Shown here one piece after another: positions 8,215 to 48,070 of a DNA stretch of 64,000 bases. Source of the DNA: Vairimorpha necatrix (taxonomy: Eukaryota); contig CP142733.1 of NCBI GenBank assembly GCA_036630325.1, positions 1 through 64,000 on the forward strand, read 5' to 3'. Each line of letters begins with the position of its first letter. Position 1 is the first letter of the stretch. The notes under the pieces were generated by a model. It was not told the DNA's origin. It did not search any database and was given only the letters and a program-made list of their open reading frames with translations. Position numbers and translations under genes: made by a program.

Positions 8215-8400
8215 AAATAAGTGAATCTAATTAGGATATGTTTATTGTAACTTATATTTATAGTTTAACAAGGATAGGTTCGCGTTAGCGTCTCCTGCTT
8301 GTAGGTTGCTTCTCATCTCCATAGTCCTTCCCACATCAACTTCGTATCCTCTCCTTCGGTAGTCCAGAGAAATGCTTTATTTCGTGATCATCTGGATGTT
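8215..8400 (-). mobile_element. 3'-terminal fragment of RLE non-LTR family B
   Basis: Contains GGTT(C)CGCGTTAGCGTCTCCTG and CATCTGGATG, matching the reverse complement of ~47050-47240. Confidence 0.85.
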
Positions 8401-13700: not shown

Positions 13701-14194
13701 ATATAGACTTGTCAATAATATCAAAAGATTAATTGTGCTACTAGAATATTTAATTTTGAATTTAATCGATTTCAGTTTGTATTATCATCGTTGTATCTTG
13801 TTGTTTATTTCTAATAAACTCTGAATTTTAAGATATTCTGTAAATTTTACATAAAATATATTATTTGGTTTAAAGAATTTATTTGATAGATGTACTAGAA
13901 CAGCTTTGTTTGTCAAATCGATTATAATTTATTGGTAGATCTAAAATATCCTTCATTAGGAATCTGTTTTATTTTATAGTTCTAACGTTATATACATAAC
14001 AAAATCTGGAATTCTAAAATTCATCTTTATTGATAATACTTTATCATAAGTATAATTTTTTACGTTAATTAAATTTATTCCGTGTCTTGTTTTATATATT
14101 TACCGTTTATTTTAATATTAAATTATATTTAGAAATTCGTCTGATTCATAATTTCATTGAAATAATCTAATTATTTTGATAATTTTCATCTTAT

Positions 14195-14485
14195 TTTAAA
14201 TAAATGAATTTAATTAAAGTATGCTTATTGTAGTTTATATTTATAGTTTAACAGGGGTAGGTTCCGCGTTAGCGTCTCCTGTATAAAGGTAGCTTTGTGG
14301 CTCCAAAGTCCATTCCACAAAGGCTTCGTCACCTCTCATTTGGTAGTCGAGAGAATGCTTTCTAGCGTCTTCTTTAACGTTATCATCTGGATGTACGCTT
14401 CTACCTTCTTAGGGATTCCAAGTCTTGTGGTATATGATTTGTAGAACTTAGTCACGATACCGTCCCAAGTGATTAAGTAGGAAAT
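14195..14485 (-). mobile_element. 3'-terminal fragment of RLE non-LTR family B
   Basis: Contains GGTTCCGCGTTAGCGTCTCCTG. Colinear with the reverse complement of ~46960-47240. Confidence 0.9.
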
Positions 14486-15630: not shown

Positions 15631-15669
15631 TGTTATACATTTATTTAATAGGAAAGTTCAACCCTAACA
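15631..15669 (-). repeat. 3' LTR of G2 (39 bp)
   Basis: Minus strand reads TGTTAGGGTTGAACTTTCCTATTAAATAAATGTATAACA and is preceded by a purine tract. Confidence 0.9.
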
Positions 15670-18600
15670 TTTCTCCTTCAAACGGATAGTCTCAGGTTAC
15701 AAGCTTCTAATTAATCATTTTTATAATCTTCTAGGTCATAATGTCGTTTTTTAATGTATCTTCCGCTATCAGTCCTTACAATAAAAGTATCATTCTCATA
15801 CTTTCCCATCATTTTACCAACACTTGTAAATCTTCCTTTTGTACTTTTCATCTATTTACCCAAGTTTTTTATCTTGCGATTCTCACAGCCTGATCTACTT
15901 CAAATTTTTCTCTATGCTTTTGTTTAAACTTACTTGCATACACATTCTTTTTATTGTTTTCAATTAAGACTTCTTTTCCTTGTTCTTTCCATGCTTCCAT
16001 TGGTGTATATTTAATCGCTGTGTGTAGAGTGTTATTATAGGTTCTTGCAGCTTGTTCTAGTTTTTCCTCTGGGTTTCCTTCTTTTTTAATGATCATCGAT
16101 TCCCTCATTGTTCAAATACATCGTTCTATTCTTCAATTACTCCTATGAGCTTCTAAACCTACTTTCCATTGCATAATTTCGTTTTCTATACACCAAATTA
16201 CAAAATTCTTACTAAAAATTCCTTATGTTTTCCGTAATATATTCATCTAGGTATCTATCTCAAATATCCATTTTATAAAGTTTTAGACTAATTTCACTAT
16301 CATTATTTTCTATCTTTGCGTCACATATTCTTGTTCTAAGTAGTCCATCCCTAATAGCACGTATCTTTCTATTTGCCAAATATCCAATACGTTAGAAAGT
16401 TTTTTAAATTTCTTAAATATTGTTACTTAATTGCTACCTCCCATCGTTTTTCTATTATTAATGCTACATACTTCACAATTTTTTAGTGTTGTGGTTATCT
16501 GGTACTTCATACCGGACCAGTACCATCTTTGTTTAATCTTATAATGTGTTTCCTTAACTCCTCGATGATTTAATTCCTCATGAACTCTACGAATTTCTGT
16601 ACTCACTTATTTCTTCGTGTTGTATTTATGAATTACTCCTGTTGAGAACTTCCAAAAGTTTTTTCCTCTTCTAACCATGCGCTTTATTTCTTTCCTTTTC
16701 ATCTATTTTTAGCCCGTTTCTACTTTCGCTGCTTTCTTTCACTTCGTTATTTTAAAATCTCTACTAAGAGCATCCACATACGTCATCCATTCGCCTTTTA
16801 CATATTCAATAGTAGAATCATACTCTTGTATATATTATATCTATCTATTAATTATGTAATTATTGAAAAACGGTTTGTTTCTAATCATGGCCAGTCCTTT
16901 ATGATTTGTCATTTATTGAAATTTACTTCCACCCAAATCTGACTCGATTTTCTTTATTCCAAATAAGGCTGCCAACATCTCTTTTTCACTAATCGTATAC
17001 TTTTTATCTGTTGGTGTTATCATTTTTGATGCTCATTGTATCTGAATCCACCTTCCTTCTTTGTCTTCTTGCAATAGTATGGCTCCAATTCCCGTATCGT
17101 ATGCATCTGTTCTTACTCTACACATTTTTTTTCTATCTACTATTTTTAAAATTTTAATTATCTTTAAACCCTCTTTGATATCATAAAAGCTCTTTCCATA
17201 TCTTCGGACCATTCCCATTATACATCTTTTTTTAGTGCTTCTGTAAGAAACGCTGACCGATAAGCATAATGGGGAATAAAATTTCTTGACCAGCCTGCCC
17301 GTCCCTCAAATTCTCTAAGCTCATTTATGTTGTTAGGCCTTCTGTATTCTTTTGTCACTCGGAATTTATTTTCCTTTGGTTTAATTTCTTCTCCGTTAAT
17401 TGTTACTACAATAATTTTACTTCTCCTTTATATTGTATCTTTTTTAGTTTCTTTTAAACCATATTCTTAGAATTTTCGAAATATTTGTTTTAATAAATTA
17501 TCGTGTATATTACTATCACTTACATGAATAATAATATCATCCATGTATACCTCATAACTTATCTAAAACCCCGTTCATCACTCTTTGCATAATATATGGA
17601 GCATTTTTAAATCCCATTACCATGATATTCCATTCGTAAACTCTAACATTTATCTCAGAGGCTGTCTTATGCTTTTGAGCTTTCTCAATTTCTATATGAT
17701 AGAATCCTTACTTTAGGTCTATAACCATAAATACTTTAGAACCTTGCGTTGCCCTAATAATGTTCTAATCAATGGCAATTCATATGGATCTTTTTAAACC
17801 AGTTCGTTTAAAGCCATCAAATTGAATACCGATCTCACTTCACTATTTGGTTTTTCTATGGGCTTTATTAGGCTTCTCCATTCGCTCTTTGTCCTTCTGA
17901 TAATACCTCTACTTTCTAATAAATTAATATACTATTCTAACTTTTCTCGGAGTTTATAAGGAATATTTTGTTTCTTTTTAACTACTTTTACTCAATGTTT
18001 TGTTTTGATAGAACATTTTCTCCCGGTAAAGTATTTTATTTTCCCTTTGTCTTTTCCTAATACCTCAGGAAATTTTCCTTCCAATTCTTCATATTTATTA
18101 ATATTTTTTCTTCTTTTATCTTGATTTGTATTTTTTATATAAAAACTGTTTCTTGAGTTCTTTCTTCCTACCTCCACTGGTAGTCTCAATTTAAAATCAT
18201 TTCCTTTTAATATTTTCACTTTACTATAATCACGAATGCCAAAATATTTAACACTTTTAATTTCATAATTCTCTTCCTGCCTTCCTTTACGCTCCATACA
18301 ACCTCTAGCTATATGTATATTTCTTCCACATATAAAACAATGTTTTCCTTCTCGTCTTTGATATTGAAAGTTTCTTCCTGGCACTGCTACAGTCCTAGTC
18401 AGATCTCTTTTTTTTTCTCTTTTTAATTTTTCTTTCATACCTCTACCTTTTCTTTTAGTTCTCTACACCTTATTTTTTCCTTGTTCTTATTCTCTTTCTC
18501 TTCACAACTAATTTATCAATTTCATCAATAATATCATTCTAATTTATCATACTAATTAAATTTTTATCAATAATAAAATTTTGAAGTTCAGTAATTACTT

Positions 18601-18739
18601 GTTTCGCCATTTCGTTGTCAAATATTGTACATCTTTTTGCATTATGATGATTGTCTCACTCTTCGAGCTTCTTTTAGTAATTTATTGTTCTCTTAAACAT
18701 GGCTCTCACTTGTTAACCTTTCGTATTTTGTGTTCGCCA

Positions 18740-18777
18740 TGTTATACATTTATTTAATAGGAGGTTCGACTTTAACA
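18740..18777 (-). repeat. 5' LTR of G2 (38 bp)
   Basis: Minus strand reads TGTTAAAGTCGAACCTCCTATTAAATAAATGTATAACA and is followed directly by TGGCGAACACAA. Confidence 0.9.
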
Positions 18778-24910: not shown

Positions 24911-25204
24911 AATTCGAAGAGCAGAAACAAGAAAATATTATAAATCAATATGTTAGTTTTGACTCACCCTCTTCTACTTAGATTTAGGCTACGTGCCGGA
25001 TCATAAGATGTGTAGATACTCCATAAAGAAAAAAAATTATTAATTTGTCATATATTTATTTCTTGTTTTTTTTTTAATTCATATCGCAATATGGAAACAA
25101 TATAGTTTATTTCAGAAAATAACATAATAAATACCATTGTTATAATATATTTAAACAATCTTTACAAATAAATACAACATAATTACTATTATGTTTTCTA
25201 TTAT

Positions 25205-25412
25205 AAAAAATGAATTATTTCAGGATATGCTAACGGTGTTTTATATTTGTAGTATATTCTGAATAGGTTCCGCGTTAGCGTCTCCTGTTTGTGGGCAGCT
25301 TCTCGGCTCTTAGTCCTTTTGAAATCGAAACCTTCACATCTCTTAGTAGTTTATTGGAATAATTTCGTTTGTCTTCTCTGTTAATCATCTTGATGTACGC
25401 TTCTACTTTCTT
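25205..25412 (-). mobile_element. 3'-terminal fragment of RLE non-LTR family B
   Basis: GAATAGGTTCCGCGTTAGCGTCTCCTG and GATGTACGCTTCTAC are shared with the other family B copies. Confidence 0.85.
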
Positions 25413-25447
25413 ATTGTATTTGATAGTTAAACCTATTTTTTATTTTA

Positions 25448-25485
25448 TGTAGGGTTTAGAACCCTTAATAAATAAATGGTTAACA
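25448..25485 (+). repeat. 5' LTR of G1 (38 bp)
   Basis: TGTAGGGTTTAGAACCCTTAATAAATAAATGGTTAACA. Confidence 0.95.
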
Positions 25486-26015
25486 TGGCGAACACAAGGA
25501 TGAACAGGGAAACAAGAGAGTCCCGTAGTCAAGAGGCTAGAACATTAGAGAAAGAGGCAATTAGGATAGATAAGAGACTAAAGTTAATATTGAAAGTTGA
25601 GTGGAAAGATGTTATGGATTTGGCATCTGCGAACTTGCAGGATTATATTTTTGAAAATTTTTGTGACGGAAGGAGCAGTTGGGAGGAAATTTATAAAGGC
25701 TTACAAAAAGGAGCAGAATTTGAGAGAGAGTCAGAAGAAAGACAAGAAATGATTAAAGAGATTATGGATAAAGTGTTGAAAGAGTTTAGGGAAGAAAGAA
25801 AAGAAAATCTTAGGATGTATAGGAAAAGAAGAGAAATCAGAGAAACTACAAAATGTTTTATATGTAAGAAAGAAGGGCATTACGCTAGAAAATGTCATGA
25901 AAGTGTAGCTGGTAGGGAAAAATATAAAATTAAAAAGGAACAAGTTTTACAGAAAGAACCAATTATCAACAATGAAGGGAAAAGATGTAAAACAGTAAAT
26001 AAGTTAGAAAATTAA
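25476..26015 (+). CDS. gag: Short Gag-like protein with CCHC zinc knuckle (true start probably ATG at 25485)
   Basis: CFICKKEGHYARKC = CX2CX4HX4C. Confidence 0.88.
   Translation: MVNMANTRMNRETRESRSQEARTLEKEAIRIDKRLKLILKVEWKDVMDLASANLQDYIFENFCDGRSSWEEIYKGLQKGAEFERESEERQEMIKEIMDKVLKEFREERKENLRMYRKRREIRETTKCFICKKEGHYARKCHESVAGREKYKIKKEQVLQKEPIINNEGKRCKTVNKLEN
25486..25497 (+). promoter_or_regulatory. Primer-binding site (PBS)
   Basis: TGGCGAACACAA starts with TGG (complement of tRNA 3'-CCA) directly after the LTR, and is identical in G2. The primer tRNA was not identified. Confidence 0.8.
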
Positions 26016-27508
26016 TTGAAAAGTATCCGGAAGTTTTTAAAGAATCAGAAGAAAAGATAAAATATCTCACAGGAGAGAAGTGTCCAATAAATACTAAGCA
26101 AGGTGAAAAGGTTGTGAAAAGAGGGCAGAATGTGCCATACTACCTTAGGGTGAAATTTGAGGAGTACTTGAATAAGTTGGAAAATAGAGGGGTTATAAGA
26201 CGTTCCAAAAGTGAGTGGAGGAGTCCAATAAGAGCACTTGAAAAACCAAATGGGGACGTAAGATTGGTAAGCAATTTGATGGCGTTAAACGATTTGGTTG
26301 ACAAGGACCCGTACTCACTACCGTTAATTAAGGATATTATGAGAGCCACACAGGGGTCAAAAGTATTTACGGTTATCGACTTAAAAGAAGGGTTTTATCA
26401 TATTGAGATTGAGGAGCACCATAAGCACAAAACAGCATTTGAAGTGAATGGTCGAGTATACGAATGGAATAGTATGGTTATGGGGTTTAAGAATTCGCCT
26501 CATATAATGCAGAGAGTAATGAACAGAGTTTTAGATGAATTCAGAGGTAAAGGCGTGGAAGTATATATGGATGATATAGTTATTCATGGTAAAGACGTAA
26601 GAGTGCATGACGAGTTACTAGAGAGGGTAATTAAAAAGTTTAAAGAGTGTGGGTTGAGAATAAACCAAACAAAGATACAATACAAAAAAGATGAGGTGAT
26701 GTTGCTGGGAGTAACAATTAATGGGGAGGTCATGGGACCGAATGAGATTAAAAAGCAGGAGACATTGGAATATAGAAAACCTGAGAATGTTAGAGAGTTA
26801 AGAAGATTTTTAGGACTAACTGGTTGGTTTAGAGACTTTATTCTTAACTATGCGTATAGAACAGTAAGGCTTACTGAGGCTTTAAAGAAAGATGTCAAGT
26901 GGAATTGGACGGAGGATATGGAAAGAGCTTTTGAGGATATGAAGCAAGGCTTGAGAGATATGAAAAAGTTGAAGATTCCGGACGGAAAAAAGCCATTTAG
27001 AGTAAGAACTGATGCGTGTGATACGGGGATCGGAGCAATTCTATTACAAGAAAATAAAGAGGGTGAGTGGATTCTTATACAATGGGCATCGAAAATGTTG
27101 ACTCCTACCGAGCGAAGATATACGATAAGTGAGAAGGAGATGTTGGCGGTATTTTTTAGAATAAAGAAGTTTGAAAGTGATTTGAGAGGAAGGAAATTTC
27201 ATTTGATGACGGATCATAAAGCATTAGCAGAGATCAGAAATAAGCCATACTTCAATAATAACAGAATAAACAGATGGGTAGAACAGATACAAGAGTTTGA
27301 CTTTACAATAGAGTATGTGAAAGGGGAGTTGATGACAGATGCAGATGCGTTAAGTAGGCAGTATGATCAGGTAGAAGTTTCGGATGAACAAAAAGAAAAG
27401 GACAACAAGAGAAAAGAAGTGATCGAGAAACAAATTTTGGGAAAAAGCAGAAACATATTAAAGAAAAGGACGGTAAACAGTATTGGGAATTTTCCACAGG
27501 TGAGGTGA
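26003..27508 (+). CDS. pol: Pol: reverse transcriptase + RNase H (frame open from ~26003; listed ORF starts 26114)
   Basis: RT motifs IDLKEGFYH, MGFKNSP and YMDD. RNase H motifs TDACDTGIGA, SEKEMLA, TDHKAL and ADALSR. Confidence 0.96.
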   Translation, partial: VRKLIEKYPEVFKESEEKIKYLTGEKCPINTKQGEKVVKRGQNVPYYLRVKFEEYLNKLENRGVIRRSKSEWRSPIRALEKPNGDVRLVSNLMALNDLVDKDPYSLPLIKDIMRATQGSKVFTVIDLKEGFYHIEIEEHHKHKTAFEVNGRVYEWNSMVMGFKNSPHIMQRVMNRVLDEFRGKGVEVYMDDIVIHGKDVRVHDELLERVIKKFKECGLRINQTKIQYKKDEVMLLGVTINGEVMGPNEIKKQETLEYRKPENVRELRRFLGLTGWFRDFILNYAYRTVRLTEALKKDVKWNWTEDMERAFEDMKQGLRDMKKLKIPDGKKPFRVRTDACDTGIGAILLQENKEGEWILIQWASKMLTPTERRYTISEKEMLAVFFRIKKFESDLRGRKFHLMTDHKALAEIRNKPYFNNNRINRWVEQIQEFDFTIEYVKGELMTDADALSRQYDQVEVSDEQKEKDNKRKEVIEKQILGKSRNILKKRTVNSIGNFPQVR

Positions 27509-28485
27509 AAGAGATATTGAGCCTAGATAGTAGAGAACATGAAATAACAAGAGTACATGAGGAGTTAAACCATAGAGGTGTCAAAGGCACTTATTATAAC
27601 ATTAAACAAAGATGGTATTGGCCTGGTATGAAAGATCATATTAATAAGGTAATTAAGAATTGTGAAATATGTGGGATTAACAATAGGAAAAACACAGGAG
27701 GATGTGATTTCGTAGTAACTAGAAAGAAATTGGAGAAAGTGGCGTTGGATTTAATGGACATAGGTGGAGAGAATAGGTATGTGTTACTGGGTATTGATTA
27801 CTTTACTAGAAGGTTGTGGGGTTCGAATTTGAGATGTAAAGAGAGTAGTGAAGTTATAGAGGTATTACAAAAGTGGATAAGGGAAGATGGATTTCCAGAG
27901 GAATATGTGACAGACAACGGAAAAGAGTTTGTAAGTAATAGATTTAAAGAATGGTGTAGTATTAATGATATTAAACATAGGAAAGTGGGCTTAGAAGCTC
28001 ATAGGAGTAATGGTAGAATCGAGAGATGCATCAGAACTATAAGAGAGACATTGATAAAGCAAAATGATGAGAATATTTCTGAAAAGATAGAAAGAGCAAT
28101 CAAAGGATATAATAATACACTACATACAGCAATAAAATGTACGCCGATGGAAGCGTGGAGAGATCAAACTGCTGAAGTTATAATTGAAAATGATGAAAAT
28201 GGAAAATATGCTGGTCGGTTCAAGAGAAGACACAGAGAGACATTTACAGTAGGCCAAGAGGTAAGAATCGCTAGGAGAGAAAATTTAGGTACACGTGCGA
28301 AAACAGACAAGGGAAGATTCACGGGTCGCGGAAGGATCGTAGCTATAAGTGAAAATGATTCATATATTGTGAGGCTACTGGATGGTAAAATTGTTAAAAA
28401 GAGGCATTATGATTTGAAAGAGATAAGGAAGAGTTGTTTAGAAGATGGAGAGACTACCCGTCTGGAGGGGGGATGTATGGTTTAG
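27505..28485 (+). CDS. Integrase (HHCC zinc finger, DDE core, GPY/F-like tail), -1 frame from RT-RNaseH
   Basis: HEELNHRG...CEIC, ALDLMD, TDNGKEF and SNGRIERC. The stop codon lies inside the 3' LTR. Confidence 0.95.
   Translation: MKEILSLDSREHEITRVHEELNHRGVKGTYYNIKQRWYWPGMKDHINKVIKNCEICGINNRKNTGGCDFVVTRKKLEKVALDLMDIGGENRYVLLGIDYFTRRLWGSNLRCKESSEVIEVLQKWIREDGFPEEYVTDNGKEFVSNRFKEWCSINDIKHRKVGLEAHRSNGRIERCIRTIRETLIKQNDENISEKIERAIKGYNNTLHTAIKCTPMEAWRDQTAEVIIENDENGKYAGRFKRRHRETFTVGQEVRIARRENLGTRAKTDKGRFTGRGRIVAISENDSYIVRLLDGKIVKKRHYDLKEIRKSCLEDGETTRLEGGCMV
28464..28473 (+). promoter_or_regulatory. Polypurine tract (PPT)
   Basis: GGAGGGGGGA immediately 5' of the 3' LTR. Confidence 0.9.
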
Positions 28486-28511
28486 AACCCTTAATAAATA
28501 AATGGTTAACA
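28474..28511 (+). repeat. 3' LTR of G1 (38 bp)
   Basis: TGTATGGTTTAGAACCCTTAATAAATAAATGGTTAACA. Confidence 0.95.
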
Positions 28512-29725
28512 TTTTATATAACACAAAAATGTTAGTATTGATATTATATTATATTTTTATTCAAATGTATATATGTCTTCTTTATTATACTCTATAAACT
28601 ATCTTATTTAAATTTTTAATATATCATTTTTATTTAATCATAATATATTTAAAATATTTTTTTTCAAATATTTTCCTTAAATAAAGATAATTTTAAATAT
28701 TCAAAAAGATTAGTTTCATTAAATATAATAGACAAGATTATAATGAATCTAGCATCGATAAAAAATATTTGAATTCTACAAGGCTTGATCTGATGATTTA
28801 TCCTTCATTTAGTATTTATTGTATTATAATCCGTTGTTATAATTATCTTTATCTCTCAAAAAAGCAAAATTTATTACCGAAAACAAAATTGCTACACACC
28901 TTTTTTACATGGCCAACATGTATTTTCTAAATATATTTTTATTTATACTAAACTTTAGATTTTTACTGATATATATAAAATAATCATTCTTATTTATTTA
29001 TAGAATTTTATATCGTATATACGTTTTTATGATATATTTTTTTTATTAAACTCATTTAATTATTTATTATAATAGAATGATAGTCTTTAATTTGGTATTT
29101 TTATAATGTTCTAATTATTAAATAACTTTACATTTGAAATATTTTGTTCTACTTTGACCTTAATTATAACTGTAAACAGTTTATATGATAATTCAGAATT
29201 TATTTATTACTAAAATATTATTTAAACTTGAATGTTAACTAATAAAGACTTTCAAAGCTGATATAGAAGCTTTGTCATCATGCTATTACAATGTGGTTTT
29301 TCGAGAAAAATATACTATCAGTATCATTTAGTGTATGCACAAACTTTCAAATTTTATTATATGCTAAATTTCTTATCTGATAAATTTCGCTTTTCGATTG
29401 TTATAAAATTTTCGTAAATGTTAATGATCCTTCATTAGATAATATTTCTAGACACACTCTTCTTTTGTCATAATATTACTCTCTTCCTAATTTTATTTTT
29501 TCATGTAAGATAAGAGAGAACCATTACATAGAATTTTGTTAACAATAAATTTGTTCTCATAAGTTTAGTGTAGGTAGTTTATTGATAAATACCGATTTGA
29601 ATTCTCATACAAACTACAGAAAGTACATATTGTAAATTTTTTTCGTTTCAGAACATATATTTTATCTATCTTTGAATTACATCGTCAAGATTCACTGCTG
29701 ATAAGAAACTAAGATTTAAATAATT

Positions 29726-46854: not shown

Positions 46855-47240
46855 ATTCACAAGAGAATCTACAGCAAGTAGAAAACGATAAGTTAAGAAA
46901 GTATGATGTCCTTGCGAATGAACTGGGTCTAATAATTGGTTTTAAAACAGAAATAATATTCTACGTAATTACTTGAGAAGGTATAGTGAACAAGTTTCAC
47001 AAATCTTATACCACAAGACTTTTAATCCCTAATATGGTAGAAGCGTACATCCAGATGATCACGCTAAAGAAGACGCTAGAGAGCATTTTCTGGACTACCG
47101 AAGGAGAGGAGACGAAGCCGATGTGGAAAGGACTATGGAGATGAGAAGTCACCTACAAGCAGGAAACGCTAACGCGGAACCTATTCTTGTTAAACTAAAA
47201 ATATAAATTACAACAAGCATACCCTAATTAAATTTATTTA
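46855..47240 (+). mobile_element. 3'-terminal fragment of RLE non-LTR family B (longest copy)
   Basis: Translates as VENDKLRKYDVLANELGLI...VEAYIQMITLKKTLESI, homologous to the C-terminus of the 51385-52848 ORF but with a different 3' tail. Confidence 0.9.
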
Positions 47241-48070
47241 TTATATCATAATTATGGGTAAGATTTATCAAAATATATAACAGTTAATATATTACGAAAT
47301 ATTTAACACATTGGATTCTAGAAAAAGTTTTATAAATTTCAAAATTTTTTATAACTTTCATAATTTTAAGAGTCATTAAAAGTCAAGAACCAAATGTTTT
47401 TCAAATATTTTAATAACTATAAAATTTTTCGTTAACATAACGTCTTAAAAATAATTTCAAATCGATTAAAATATGTATTTAAAAAAAATTTAAACGTTGA
47501 AATTGCATTTTATTTGTATGTATGTTTCAATATTTATATTGGCCTACCAAATAGCTTTTTTCATTAAAATTAAAGCTAATTAGGTAGTTTGAAAAAAATA
47601 GTTCCAAATACTTATAATAGAATCATCTGAATAGACAAAACACAAATATTATTTTACAGACAGATTATGCCTAAAACGAAGTTTCAAAATTTTGCAGTTA
47701 AACAAGACAAATGTAGAAATACACTACTGATTTAGTAATAAAAATATTAATGATGTTATTCCCAAATTATTTTCATGTATCAATAATACTTACAAGAAAG
47801 GATATAAAAAAAAAGTAAAACAATCAATTTGTAGCGTAAAAGCACCCTTAGACGATTTTTAAATCCAGAAATTTTAGTATAGAATAAAAAATTGTTTGTT
47901 GTAGCTAAATATGCAATGTAATTAATTGCAAAGATCGAAAGTGTATAAATTTACAATATTCCTTTTTTATTGATTATAAAATAATTTGAGTATATATAAA
48001 ACGTCATAAAAATTTTAAATCTACAAGAAAGAGCATTACATACATTTAATAAAAATTTTATTATTTCTAA

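What the first reader, a model, noticed from the sequence alone, without database searches (positions are those of the whole stretch)
25448..28511. Gypsy retrotransposon with 38-bp LTRs
Seen: both ends are 38-bp TG...CA repeats differing at one base. They are bracketed by a perfect TTTTA TSD, with PBS and PPT at the expected positions, so the short LTRs are the true boundaries and not remnants. Known: LTRs are normally roughly 100 bp to several kb because they carry U3 promoter, R and U5. Inference: U3-R-U5 has been compressed into a 6-bp hairpin (AGGGTT-TAG-AACCCT) plus overlapping AATAAA signals, giving a 3.06-kb minimal element. Structure-based LTR finders with default minimum lengths would miss it.
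Basis: partly seen in the sequence, partly recalled or inferred. Interest (0 to 1): 0.9.

Follow-up and report, generated by a model that had tools for sequence, protein, structure and literature searches.

The report
Microsporidian gypsy retrotransposon with 38-bp LTRs
This is a real, very compact 3.06-kb gypsy-type retrotransposon of a microsporidian parasite whose terminal repeats are only 38 bases long, a trait shared by its whole lineage and already tabulated, though never discussed, for a related species.

Summary
Window 25448-28511 is a 3064-bp Ty3/gypsy-type element with 38-nt TG...CA direct repeats (1 mismatch), a perfect TTTTA duplication, a TGG-start primer-binding-like site and a 10-nt purine tract.

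The short LTRs are a family trait, not remnants:
- A second, decayed relative in the window (15631-18777, minus strand) has 38/39-nt LTRs.
- Contigs from elsewhere show a 38-nt 3' LTR and a 46/47-nt LTR family.
- One contig in a public run joins the two flanks with a single TTTTA, an empty site.

The reading frame starts inside the 5' LTR and stops inside the 3' LTR. No protease is present. This copy has two frame breaks that other copies lack.

The proposed hairpin is not conserved and folds no better than shuffled sequence. The invariant part is TA.TAAATAAATG plus the TGT...ACA ends.

Novelty is limited. Parisot et al. 2014, Table S1, lists Anncaliia algerae gypsy families with 45- and 50-bp LTRs, one with the same layout.

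The U3/R/U5 assignment remains inference; no RNA data were available.

The parts
25443..25447 (+). left copy of the 5-bp target-site duplication TTTTA
   Evidence: The same 5 bases stand at 28512-28516. The empty-site contig carries one copy.
25448..25485 (+). 5' LTR, 38 nt, TGTAGGG...TTAACA. It holds CCC at LTR positions 15-17, AATAAA at 20-25 and 24-29, and an in-frame ATG at 29-31. Its last A is the first base of a second ATG.
25486..25497 (+). primer-binding-site-like TGGCGAACACAA, lying inside the gag reading frame (codons M-A-N-T)
   Evidence: It is identical in element B, and CA|TGGC.AACAC is shared with L006. The matching tRNA was not found.
25476..26015 (+). gag reading frame, 179 aa, starting inside the 5' LTR, with CCHC zinc knuckle CFICKKEGHYARKC (aa 126-139)
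   Evidence: zf-CCHC 18 bits, below Pfam's cut-off of 20.8; the motif is read directly from the translation
26010..26015 (+). first frame break, between gag and pol. Contigs of all 4 runs laid carry one more T after 26011, which makes gag and pol one frame.
   Evidence: table 4, plus my reading of the frames
26003..27508 (+). reverse transcriptase and RNase H reading frame
   Evidence: RVT_1 1.7e-31, RT_RNaseH 1.3e-30; 84% identity to a Nosema granulosis protein
27439..27446 (+). second frame break, in a run of A. Contigs of 3 runs (X1, X2, X3) carry one more A after 27441, which makes RT-RNase H and integrase one frame. X4 has no cover there.
   Evidence: table 4, plus my reading of the frames
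27442..28485 (+). integrase reading frame (H2C2 zinc finger and DDE core). Its last three codons and the stop codon TAG lie inside the 3' LTR.
   Evidence: Integrase_H2C2 8.1e-15, rve 9.6e-11
28450..28473 (+). conserved 24-nt box GAGACTACCCGTCTGGAGGGGGGA ending in the polypurine tract GGAGGGGGGA (28464-28473)
   Evidence: The box is conserved in 5 of 5 elements aligned, while the 16 bases before it are not.
28474..28511 (+). 3' LTR, 38 nt, with 1 mismatch to the 5' LTR
28512..28516 (+). right copy of the target-site duplication TTTTA
15631..18777 (-). element B: a decayed relative of 3147 bp with many stop codons. Its 5' LTR is 18740-18777 (38 nt) and its 3' LTR is 15631-15669 (39 nt). It has the same TGGCGAACACAA at 18728-18739, and its flanks are TATAT / TATAA.
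   Evidence: (66.7% identity over 2581 columns)

Best explanation
Shown. This is one copy of a microsporidian lineage of protease-less Ty3/gypsy retrotransposons. They are about 3.0-3.15 kb long, and their LTRs are only 38 nt here and 46-50 nt in relatives. In intact members one reading frame of about 1000 codons (gag-CCHC, RT, RNase H, integrase) starts in the last third of the 5' LTR. It runs through the primer-binding-like site and the polypurine tract, and in this element and some relatives it stops inside the 3' LTR. The window copy inserted as a discrete 3064-bp unit with a 5-bp duplication. It differs from other copies by two one-base frame breaks, which are either decay or homopolymer errors of the assembly.

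Inferred. The LTR is reduced to four things:
- The two integrase-recognition ends (TGT[TA]... and ...[AC]ACA).
- An invariant AT-rich core TA.TAAATAAATG that supplies the AAUAAA poly(A) signal and probably the TATA-like promoter element.
- A CCC motif of the kind found just upstream of microsporidian start codons.
- The start codon itself.

Microsporidian mRNAs have 5' leaders of only a few bases. I therefore expect transcription to start at about LTR position 18-28 and cleavage at or just past the terminal CA. This leaves U3 of about 20 nt, R of about 10-18 nt and almost no U5. R of that size would carry the first strand transfer. In effect the LTR is a minimal microsporidian intergenic spacer, with stop, poly(A) signal, promoter motif and start packed together.
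For: Boundaries:
- 38-nt repeats, TTTTA duplication, PBS-like site and PPT are all in place.
- An X1 contig follows the left flank to 25448 and then reads 17 letters that match 28518-28534 at 15 of 17. That 17-mer, with up to 2 mismatches, occurs once in both strands of the window.
- X2 and X3 contigs carry other sequence left of 25447.

Family trait:
- Element B has 38/39-nt LTRs and the same PBS-like site.
- L005 (76% aa identity) has a 38-nt 3' LTR, after which similarity to this element stops.
- L006 and L012 carry a 47-nt 5' LTR and a 46-nt 3' LTR of one family.
- The A. algerae retro L consensus has a 50-bp LTR ending ..TTAACA|TGGCG, an ORF from base 32 and a total length of 3127 bp.

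Single frame:
- L005 has an open frame of 911 aa that runs off the contig start.
- Other copies carry one extra base at each break.
- 17 contigs of 3035-3159 bp hold ORFs of 996-1031 aa.

No protease:
- 0 of 3 window frames and 0 of 6 relatives have a protease Pfam family, the latter even at E up to 1.
- D[ST]G lies between the knuckle and RT in 1 of 27 full-length relatives.
- The AlphaFold model of relative P0089 has only a low-confidence linker at 158-191 between the knuckle and RT. It shows no strand of 3 or more residues before 260.

Invariant LTR columns: TGT, TA.TAAATAAATG and T.ACA.

Background, from passages read in PMC2803860: E. cuniculi 5' UTRs are under 7 nt, a CCC-like motif lies within 15 bp of the ATG, and AAUAAA stands near stop codons.
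Against: - No RNA data: none of the 11 run holders is on record as RNA. Start site, poly(A) site and R are therefore unmeasured.
- The second AATAAA ends only 9 nt before the LTR end in the 38-nt LTRs. That is short for cleavage inside the LTR.
- The tRNA complementary to TGGCGAACACAA was not found. There is no tRNA gene in the window or in 26 loci, and a pattern search in two genome bins did no better than its control. The PBS-like strings of relatives also differ after TGGC.
- This copy has two frame breaks and at least 12 substitutions against the contigs of other runs, so it may itself be inactive.
- Both complete LTR pairs come from this one window. Elsewhere I saw single ends only.
- Lengths of short-read contigs do not measure LTR length.
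Confidence: 0.8

Rival explanations
1. The family is not autonomous. Lacking a protease, and with only a small helical Gag, it is mobilised in trans by other microsporidian gypsy families that have ordinary LTRs of 100-270 bp. The 38-bp ends would then serve mainly as integrase and strand-transfer sites.
For: No protease was found. Longer-LTR gypsy families co-exist in microsporidia; most A. algerae consensuses have LTRs of 105-272 bp.
Against: Intact frames of about 1000 aa with RT, RNase H and integrase are kept in many diverged lineages at 43-55% identity. This argues for selection on the element's own proteins. The protease-less layout holds for all 66 relatives of 36% identity or more. 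No helper was identified.
Confidence: 0.12
2. Transcription is driven by AT-rich, TATA-like host DNA just upstream of each insertion, or by read-through, and not by the LTR. The LTR would supply only the initiation region and the poly(A) signal.
For: Only about 20 nt of element sequence lie upstream of the expected start. The flanks seen are AT-rich, and two other insertions (X2, X3) both have TTATAAA directly before position 25447. Transcription overrun is reported for E. cuniculi.
Against: A start upstream of the LTR would give a strong-stop cDNA whose end cannot pair at the 3' LTR (established retroviral replication scheme). The start must therefore still fall inside the LTR. Only two flanks support the motif, in a window of about 23% G+C.
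Confidence: 0.15
3. The 38-bp repeats are remnants of longer LTRs, or a chance repeat around a dead pol gene.
For: LTRs are normally at least 100 bp. The ICTV profile gives U3 as 200-1200 nt and U5 as 75-250 nt.
Against: The PBS-like site and PPT abut the repeats. The TSD is perfect. There is an empty-site contig. The same architecture is seen in element B, L005, L006/L012 and A. algerae retro L. 0 of 100 shuffles gave the repeat.
Confidence: 0.03

Closest known systems
Anncaliia algerae 'Aalg retro L' Ty3/gypsy consensus (Parisot et al. [quoted passage not shown]
   Same: Total length is 3127 bp against 3064 bp here. The ORF starts inside the LTR at base 32. The LTR begins TGTTA, contains TTAAATAAAT and an ATG, ends TTAACA and is followed by TGGCG.
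   Different: Its LTR is 50 bp, not 38. The CCC motif lies after the AT core rather than before it. The host genus differs. The paper's main text mentions neither the short LTR nor a protease (0 occurrences of 'protease'). I could not align it with tools because it is not a stored locus, so the comparison is by eye.
Canonical Ty3/gypsy elements (Metaviridae; ICTV profile PMC7879559, passages read)
   Same: Domain order is RT, RNase H, integrase. Gag has a CCHC knuckle. The LTRs run TG...CA with ends close to the TGTTRNR...YNYAACA consensus (abstract of PMC3601003). The PPT is about 10 purines and the target duplication is 5 bp. The RT fold is closest to CaMV, Ty3 and MoMLV RTs.
   Different: The LTR is 38 nt, against a canonical U3 of 200-1200 nt plus U5 of 75-250 nt. 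The LTR is partly coding, whereas canonical LTRs are described as non-coding. There is no protease. The polyprotein is about 1000 aa.
Yeast Ty1 (recalled, no call)
   Same: The gag start codon lies inside the 5' LTR, and the primer binding site lies inside the gag coding region.
   Different: Ty1 is a copia-type element with LTRs of about 330 bp and a protease.
Very short LTRs or R regions elsewhere: Bombyx mori mag with LTRs of about 77 bp, and MMTV with R of about 11-15 nt (both recalled, no call)
   Same: They show that small LTRs, and an R of about a dozen bases, can support replication.
   Different: Both still have LTRs at least twice as long as this one, and both have a protease.

Membership tests
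Ty3/gypsy LTR retrotransposons (Metaviridae) | pol domain order RT, RNase H, integrase, with gypsy-type RNase H and H2C2 integrase domains | tested here: met
   RVT_1, RT_RNaseH, RT_RNaseH_2, then Integrase_H2C2 and rve; fold closest to CaMV, Ty3 and MoMLV RTs.
Ty3/gypsy LTR retrotransposons (Metaviridae) | Gag with nucleocapsid zinc knuckle | tested here: met
   The C-x2-C-x4-H-x4-C motif is read. The Pfam zf-CCHC score of 18 bits is below the 20.8 cut-off. The motif is invariant in 26 relatives.
Ty3/gypsy LTR retrotransposons (Metaviridae) | aspartic protease between gag and RT | tested here: not met
   no protease family at E up to 1 in 6 relatives; D[ST]G in that interval in 1 of 27; only a low-confidence linker of about 35 residues
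Ty3/gypsy LTR retrotransposons (Metaviridae) | direct terminal repeats TG...CA with U3-R-U5 | tested here: inconclusive
   The TG...CA direct repeats are present. U3, R and U5 could not be mapped because no RNA holder was listed.
Ty3/gypsy LTR retrotransposons (Metaviridae) | primer binding site complementary to a host tRNA 3' end | not testable with these tools
   TGG... directly follows the LTR. No tRNA genes were found in the window or in the loci. No genome is held. The pattern search was no better than its control.
Ty3/gypsy LTR retrotransposons (Metaviridae) | polypurine tract before the 3' LTR and a 4-6-bp target duplication | tested here: met
   GGAGGGGGGA at 28464-28473; TTTTA on both sides; the PPT box is conserved in 5 of 5 elements
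Microsporidian short-LTR, single-ORF gypsy lineage (type: A. algerae retro L) | element of about 3.0-3.15 kb, LTR of 50 bp or less with a TAAATAAAT core, ORF starting inside the LTR, LTR end CA followed by TGGC | tested here: met
   Relatives.

The most novel reading that the evidence does not exclude
The 38-nt LTR is a fully functional LTR, possibly the shortest of any autonomous LTR retrotransposon. A single 12-nt AT-rich core serves both as promoter element and as poly(A) signal. R is only about 10-18 nt and U5 is close to zero. The polyprotein is made and used without a retroelement protease. This lineage would then define the minimal cis and trans requirements for LTR retrotransposition.
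Probability: 0.4. Interest if true: 0.65.

Novelty: new member of a known kind. Interest (0 to 1): 0.42.

Why it matters
It shows how far an LTR retrotransposon can be compacted in a host with tiny promoters and leaders: 38 nt hold the integrase ends, the poly(A) signal, the promoter motif and the start codon. It also has a practical consequence. As I recall, LTR finders default to a minimum LTR of about 100 bp; I did not check this here. With such settings they will miss this whole lineage, so LTR element content in microsporidian genomes may be under-called or mis-bounded. If the start and poly(A) sites were mapped, the family would give a natural lower bound for R length and for LTR function.

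Tried and rejected
- **Programmed -1 frameshifting.** G_GGA_AAA stands at 27439-27445, in the RT frame. I rejected this reading because contigs of other runs simply carry one more base at both breaks, giving one continuous frame, and L005 has one open frame of 911 aa.
- **Hairpin as a conserved element.** Rejected.
- **Whole-genome copy survey.** Not possible because no genome is held.
- **Expression.** No RNA holder was listed among the 15 runs returned.
- **Metagenome scan.** It returned 4 loci. L001-L003 are relatives of 56-58% identity but hold no complete ends, and L004 is distant at 26%.
- **Viral contigs.** No relative was found.
- **tRNA primer.** No tRNA gene in the window or in 26 loci. 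A T-loop-plus-acceptor pattern in bins G001 and G002 gave 6 and 7 hits, against 20 and 12 for the reversed control.
- **Earlier notes of this scan.** Nothing in 3 look-ups.
- **Literature on short LTRs or missing protease in microsporidia.** Searches, and passages read, gave no discussion. Only the supplementary table of Parisot et al. 2014 bears on it. Xu et al. 2006 on Nosema bombycis Nbr elements is not held, so I could not check its LTR lengths.
- **L009.** Its 3' end is too decayed to read an LTR.
- **Solo LTRs.** None in the window.
Full report
**The observation**

Window 25448-25485 and 28474-28511 are 38-nt direct repeats that begin TG and end CA. They differ at one base. A 33-nt core of the repeat occurs exactly twice in the 64-kb window, and none of 100 shuffles gave two matches.

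- TTTTA stands immediately outside both repeats, at 25443-25447 and 28512-28516.
- TGGCGAACACAA follows the left repeat directly.
- The purine run GGAGGGGGGA precedes the right repeat directly.
- The region is richer in G+C (0.36) than the rest of the window (about 0.23).

**What lies between the repeats**

There are three reading frames:

| Frame | Coordinates | Content |
|---|---|---|
| gag | 25476-26015 | CCHC knuckle |
| pol | 26003-27508 | RVT_1 (1.7e-31), gypsy-type RNase H |
| integrase | to 28485 | Integrase_H2C2 (8.1e-15), rve (9.6e-11) |

The first ATG of gag lies inside the 5' LTR at LTR position 29. A second in-frame ATG is formed by the last A of the LTR and the TG of the PBS-like site. 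The integrase frame ends at a TAG at LTR positions 10-12 of the 3' LTR. About 16 nt of the LTR are therefore non-coding in both copies.

The best protein matches are from Nosema granulosis (84% identity), Vairimorpha necatrix, V. apis and Pseudoloma. The host is therefore a microsporidian near the Nosema/Vairimorpha group.

**The frame breaks**

I first considered programmed frameshifting, because G_GGA_AAA stands at the RT/integrase break. Laying contigs of four public runs on the region rejected this.

- All four runs carry one more T after 26011.
- Three runs carry one more A after 27441. The fourth has no cover there.
- By my reading of the frames, each extra base joins the neighbouring frames into one.

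The contigs also show a 9-nt insertion after 25591 and at least 12 substitutions against the window copy. Independently, relative L005 has one open frame of 911 aa that runs gag-RT-RNase H-integrase. The intact form is thus a single frame of about 1006 codons. The window copy is either slightly decayed or carries homopolymer errors.

**Are the 38-nt repeats the true ends?**

Five lines of evidence say yes.

1. *A second element in the window.* It lies at 15631-18777 on the minus strand. It is 66.7% identical over 2581 aligned columns and full of stops. It has 38- and 39-nt terminal repeats, the same TGGCGAACACAA after the 5' repeat, a purine run before the 3' repeat, and flanks TATAT / TATAA.
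2. *An empty site.* In run X1 a contig follows the left flank to 25448. It then reads 17 letters that match 28518-34 at 15 of 17. That string, with up to 2 mismatches, occurs once in both strands of the window, at that place. This is an allelic or paralogous site with one TTTTA and no element.
3. *Different flanks elsewhere.* Contigs of X2 and X3 carry quite different sequence to the left of 25447.
4. *L005.* This contig was filed in a bacterial bin and is 76% identical in protein. It ends ...GGAGGAGGGGA | 38-nt LTR | unrelated sequence, and similarity to this element stops at the CA.
5. *L006 and L012.* These two contigs of another bin carry a 47-nt 5' LTR followed by TGGCAACACC, and a 46-nt 3' LTR preceded by GAGGGGGGA. 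The two LTRs belong to the same family.

No solo LTR is present in the window.

**What is conserved in the LTR**

An alignment of seven LTRs leaves these columns invariant: TGT at the start, TA.TAAATAAATG in the middle, and T.ACA at the end.

The ends fit the TGTTRNR...YNYAACA integrase-recognition consensus reported for Metaviridae and retroviruses (abstract of PMC3601003).

- It folds at -5.9 kcal/mol in the 5' LTR, which is no better than shuffles (z -0.24; 78 of 200 shuffles fold as well).
- It is not formed in this element's 3' LTR or in B's 5' LTR.
- It has only 5-bp GGG...CCC counterparts in B's 3' LTR and in L005.
- It is absent at that place in the 46/47-nt LTRs.

Upstream of the 3' LTR, a 24-nt box GAGACTA.CCGT.T.GAGG.GGG.A is conserved in five of five elements, while the preceding bases are not. 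It is probably a cis element that includes the PPT.

**No protease, and a small Gag**

- No protease family was found in the window's three frames or in six relatives at E up to 1.
- In a search with the 911-aa frame, none of the first 66 rows carries a protease Pfam family. These rows have 36-100% identity and include N. granulosis, V. necatrix, Enteropsectra breve and Nematocida minor. Ten of the remaining 54 more distant rows do carry one.
- Among 27 full-length relatives, D[ST]G occurs between the knuckle and RT in one.
- An AlphaFold model of relative P0089 was built from 26 sequences (mean pLDDT 78.4). It shows helices to residue 135, the knuckle at 140-153 and a low-confidence linker at 158-191, after which RT begins. 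There is no strand of 3 or more residues before 260.
- The RT part of the model matches CaMV, Ty3 and MoMLV RTs.

**How general is the layout?**

- Seventeen short-read contigs of 3035-3159 bp hold frames of 996-1031 aa, leaving 25-100 nt outside the frame. This fits frames that run from LTR to LTR, but contig length does not itself measure LTR length.
- Of the 27 full-length relatives, 17 have Met-Ala and 3 have Met-Gly within the first eight residues, as expected for a CA|TGG junction. Seven do not.
- Nine of the 27 end within ten residues after a GG[DCM][VM]-type motif, which is what GGGGGA|TGT encodes. The other 18 stop earlier.

**Mechanism (inferred)**

By the established scheme of retroviral reverse transcription, the RNA must start inside the 5' LTR, and it must end in or after the 3' LTR downstream of that start.

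In E. cuniculi, 5' leaders are under 7 nt, a CCC-like motif lies within 15 bp upstream of start codons (also reported for N. ceranae and A. algerae), and AAUAAA stands near stop codons. I took this from passages of PMC2803860.

Here CCC is at LTR positions 15-17, the ATG is at 29, and AATAAA is at 20-25 and 24-29. I therefore place:

- the start at about position 18-28;
- cleavage at or just past the terminal CA;
- U3 at about 20 nt, R at about 10-18 nt and U5 near zero.

A start inside or after the AATAAA would also keep the poly(A) signal out of the 5' end of the RNA. None of this is measured, because no RNA run was listed. The tRNA that would pair with TGGCGAACACAA could not be sought in the host.

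**Comparison with what is known**

The ICTV profile of Metaviridae gives U3 as 200-1200 nt, U5 as 75-250 nt, non-coding LTRs and a pol with protease. This element departs on all four counts.

It is not without precedent, however. Supplementary Table S1 of Parisot et al. 2014 lists Anncaliia algerae LTR-retrotransposon consensuses. Four of them have LTRs under 100 bp (45, 50, 73 and 90), and the rest have 105-272 bp. 'Retro L' has a 50-bp LTR, an ORF from base 32 and a total of 3127 bp. Its sequence begins with an LTR holding TTAAATAAAT and an ATG, ending TTAACA and followed by TGGCG. That is the layout seen here.

The paper's main text does not comment on LTR length or protease. My other searches found no discussion. 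Xu et al. 2006 was not available.

**Verdict**

It is wrong on the hairpin and too optimistic on novelty. This is a new member, and by 7 nt the shortest-LTR member I saw, of a microsporidian lineage whose micro-LTRs were tabulated but never analysed. The functional partition of the 38 nt remains to be measured.

Noticed in passing
window 15631-18777 (-): A second, decayed element of the same lineage: 3147 bp, many stops, 38/39-nt LTRs that differ at about 5 places, and flanks TATAT / TATAA.
   Followed up: yes
window 25199-25413; also 14192-14411, 47037-47245 (-), 8216-8329: The left flank of the insertion belongs to a dispersed repeat of about 220 bp (70-76% identity between copies). Many variant contigs of it occur in runs X1 and X2.
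   Followed up: partly
runs X2 and X3 at window 25447 (table 7): Two other insertions of the element, in different runs, both have TTATAAA directly before position 25447, while the sequence further upstream differs. This could be a target preference for TATA-like sites, or chance in AT-rich DNA.
   Followed up: no
model of P0089, residues 1-195: The Gag part is predicted as three short helices, one 67-residue helix (69-135) and a zinc knuckle. It is much smaller than a two-domain retroviral-type capsid. Its fold was not searched on its own.
   Followed up: no
window 28450-28473; L005 2700-2723; L012 about 1530-1552: The conserved box before the PPT holds a small inverted repeat. It is GAGAC...GTCTC, perfect in L012, and GAGAC...GTCTG in the window.
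   Followed up: no
whole window: Only 9 ATG-started frames of 150 aa or more occur in 64 kb, and 3 of them are the element's. The other 6 have no Pfam family at E up to 0.001. No tRNA genes were found.
   Followed up: partly
L001 about 300-330; L002 about 1340-1370: A relative of 58% identity lacks its 5' end and is fused in frame to the RNase H part of another gypsy-type element (protein P0004). This is apparently a nested or chimeric copy.
   Followed up: no
L005, L006 and the bins G001, G002: Genome bins labelled Clostridium sp. and Turicibacter sp. contain microsporidian-type and other eukaryotic retrotransposon contigs: 25 and 6 integrase matches. This looks like contamination of the bins.
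   Followed up: no
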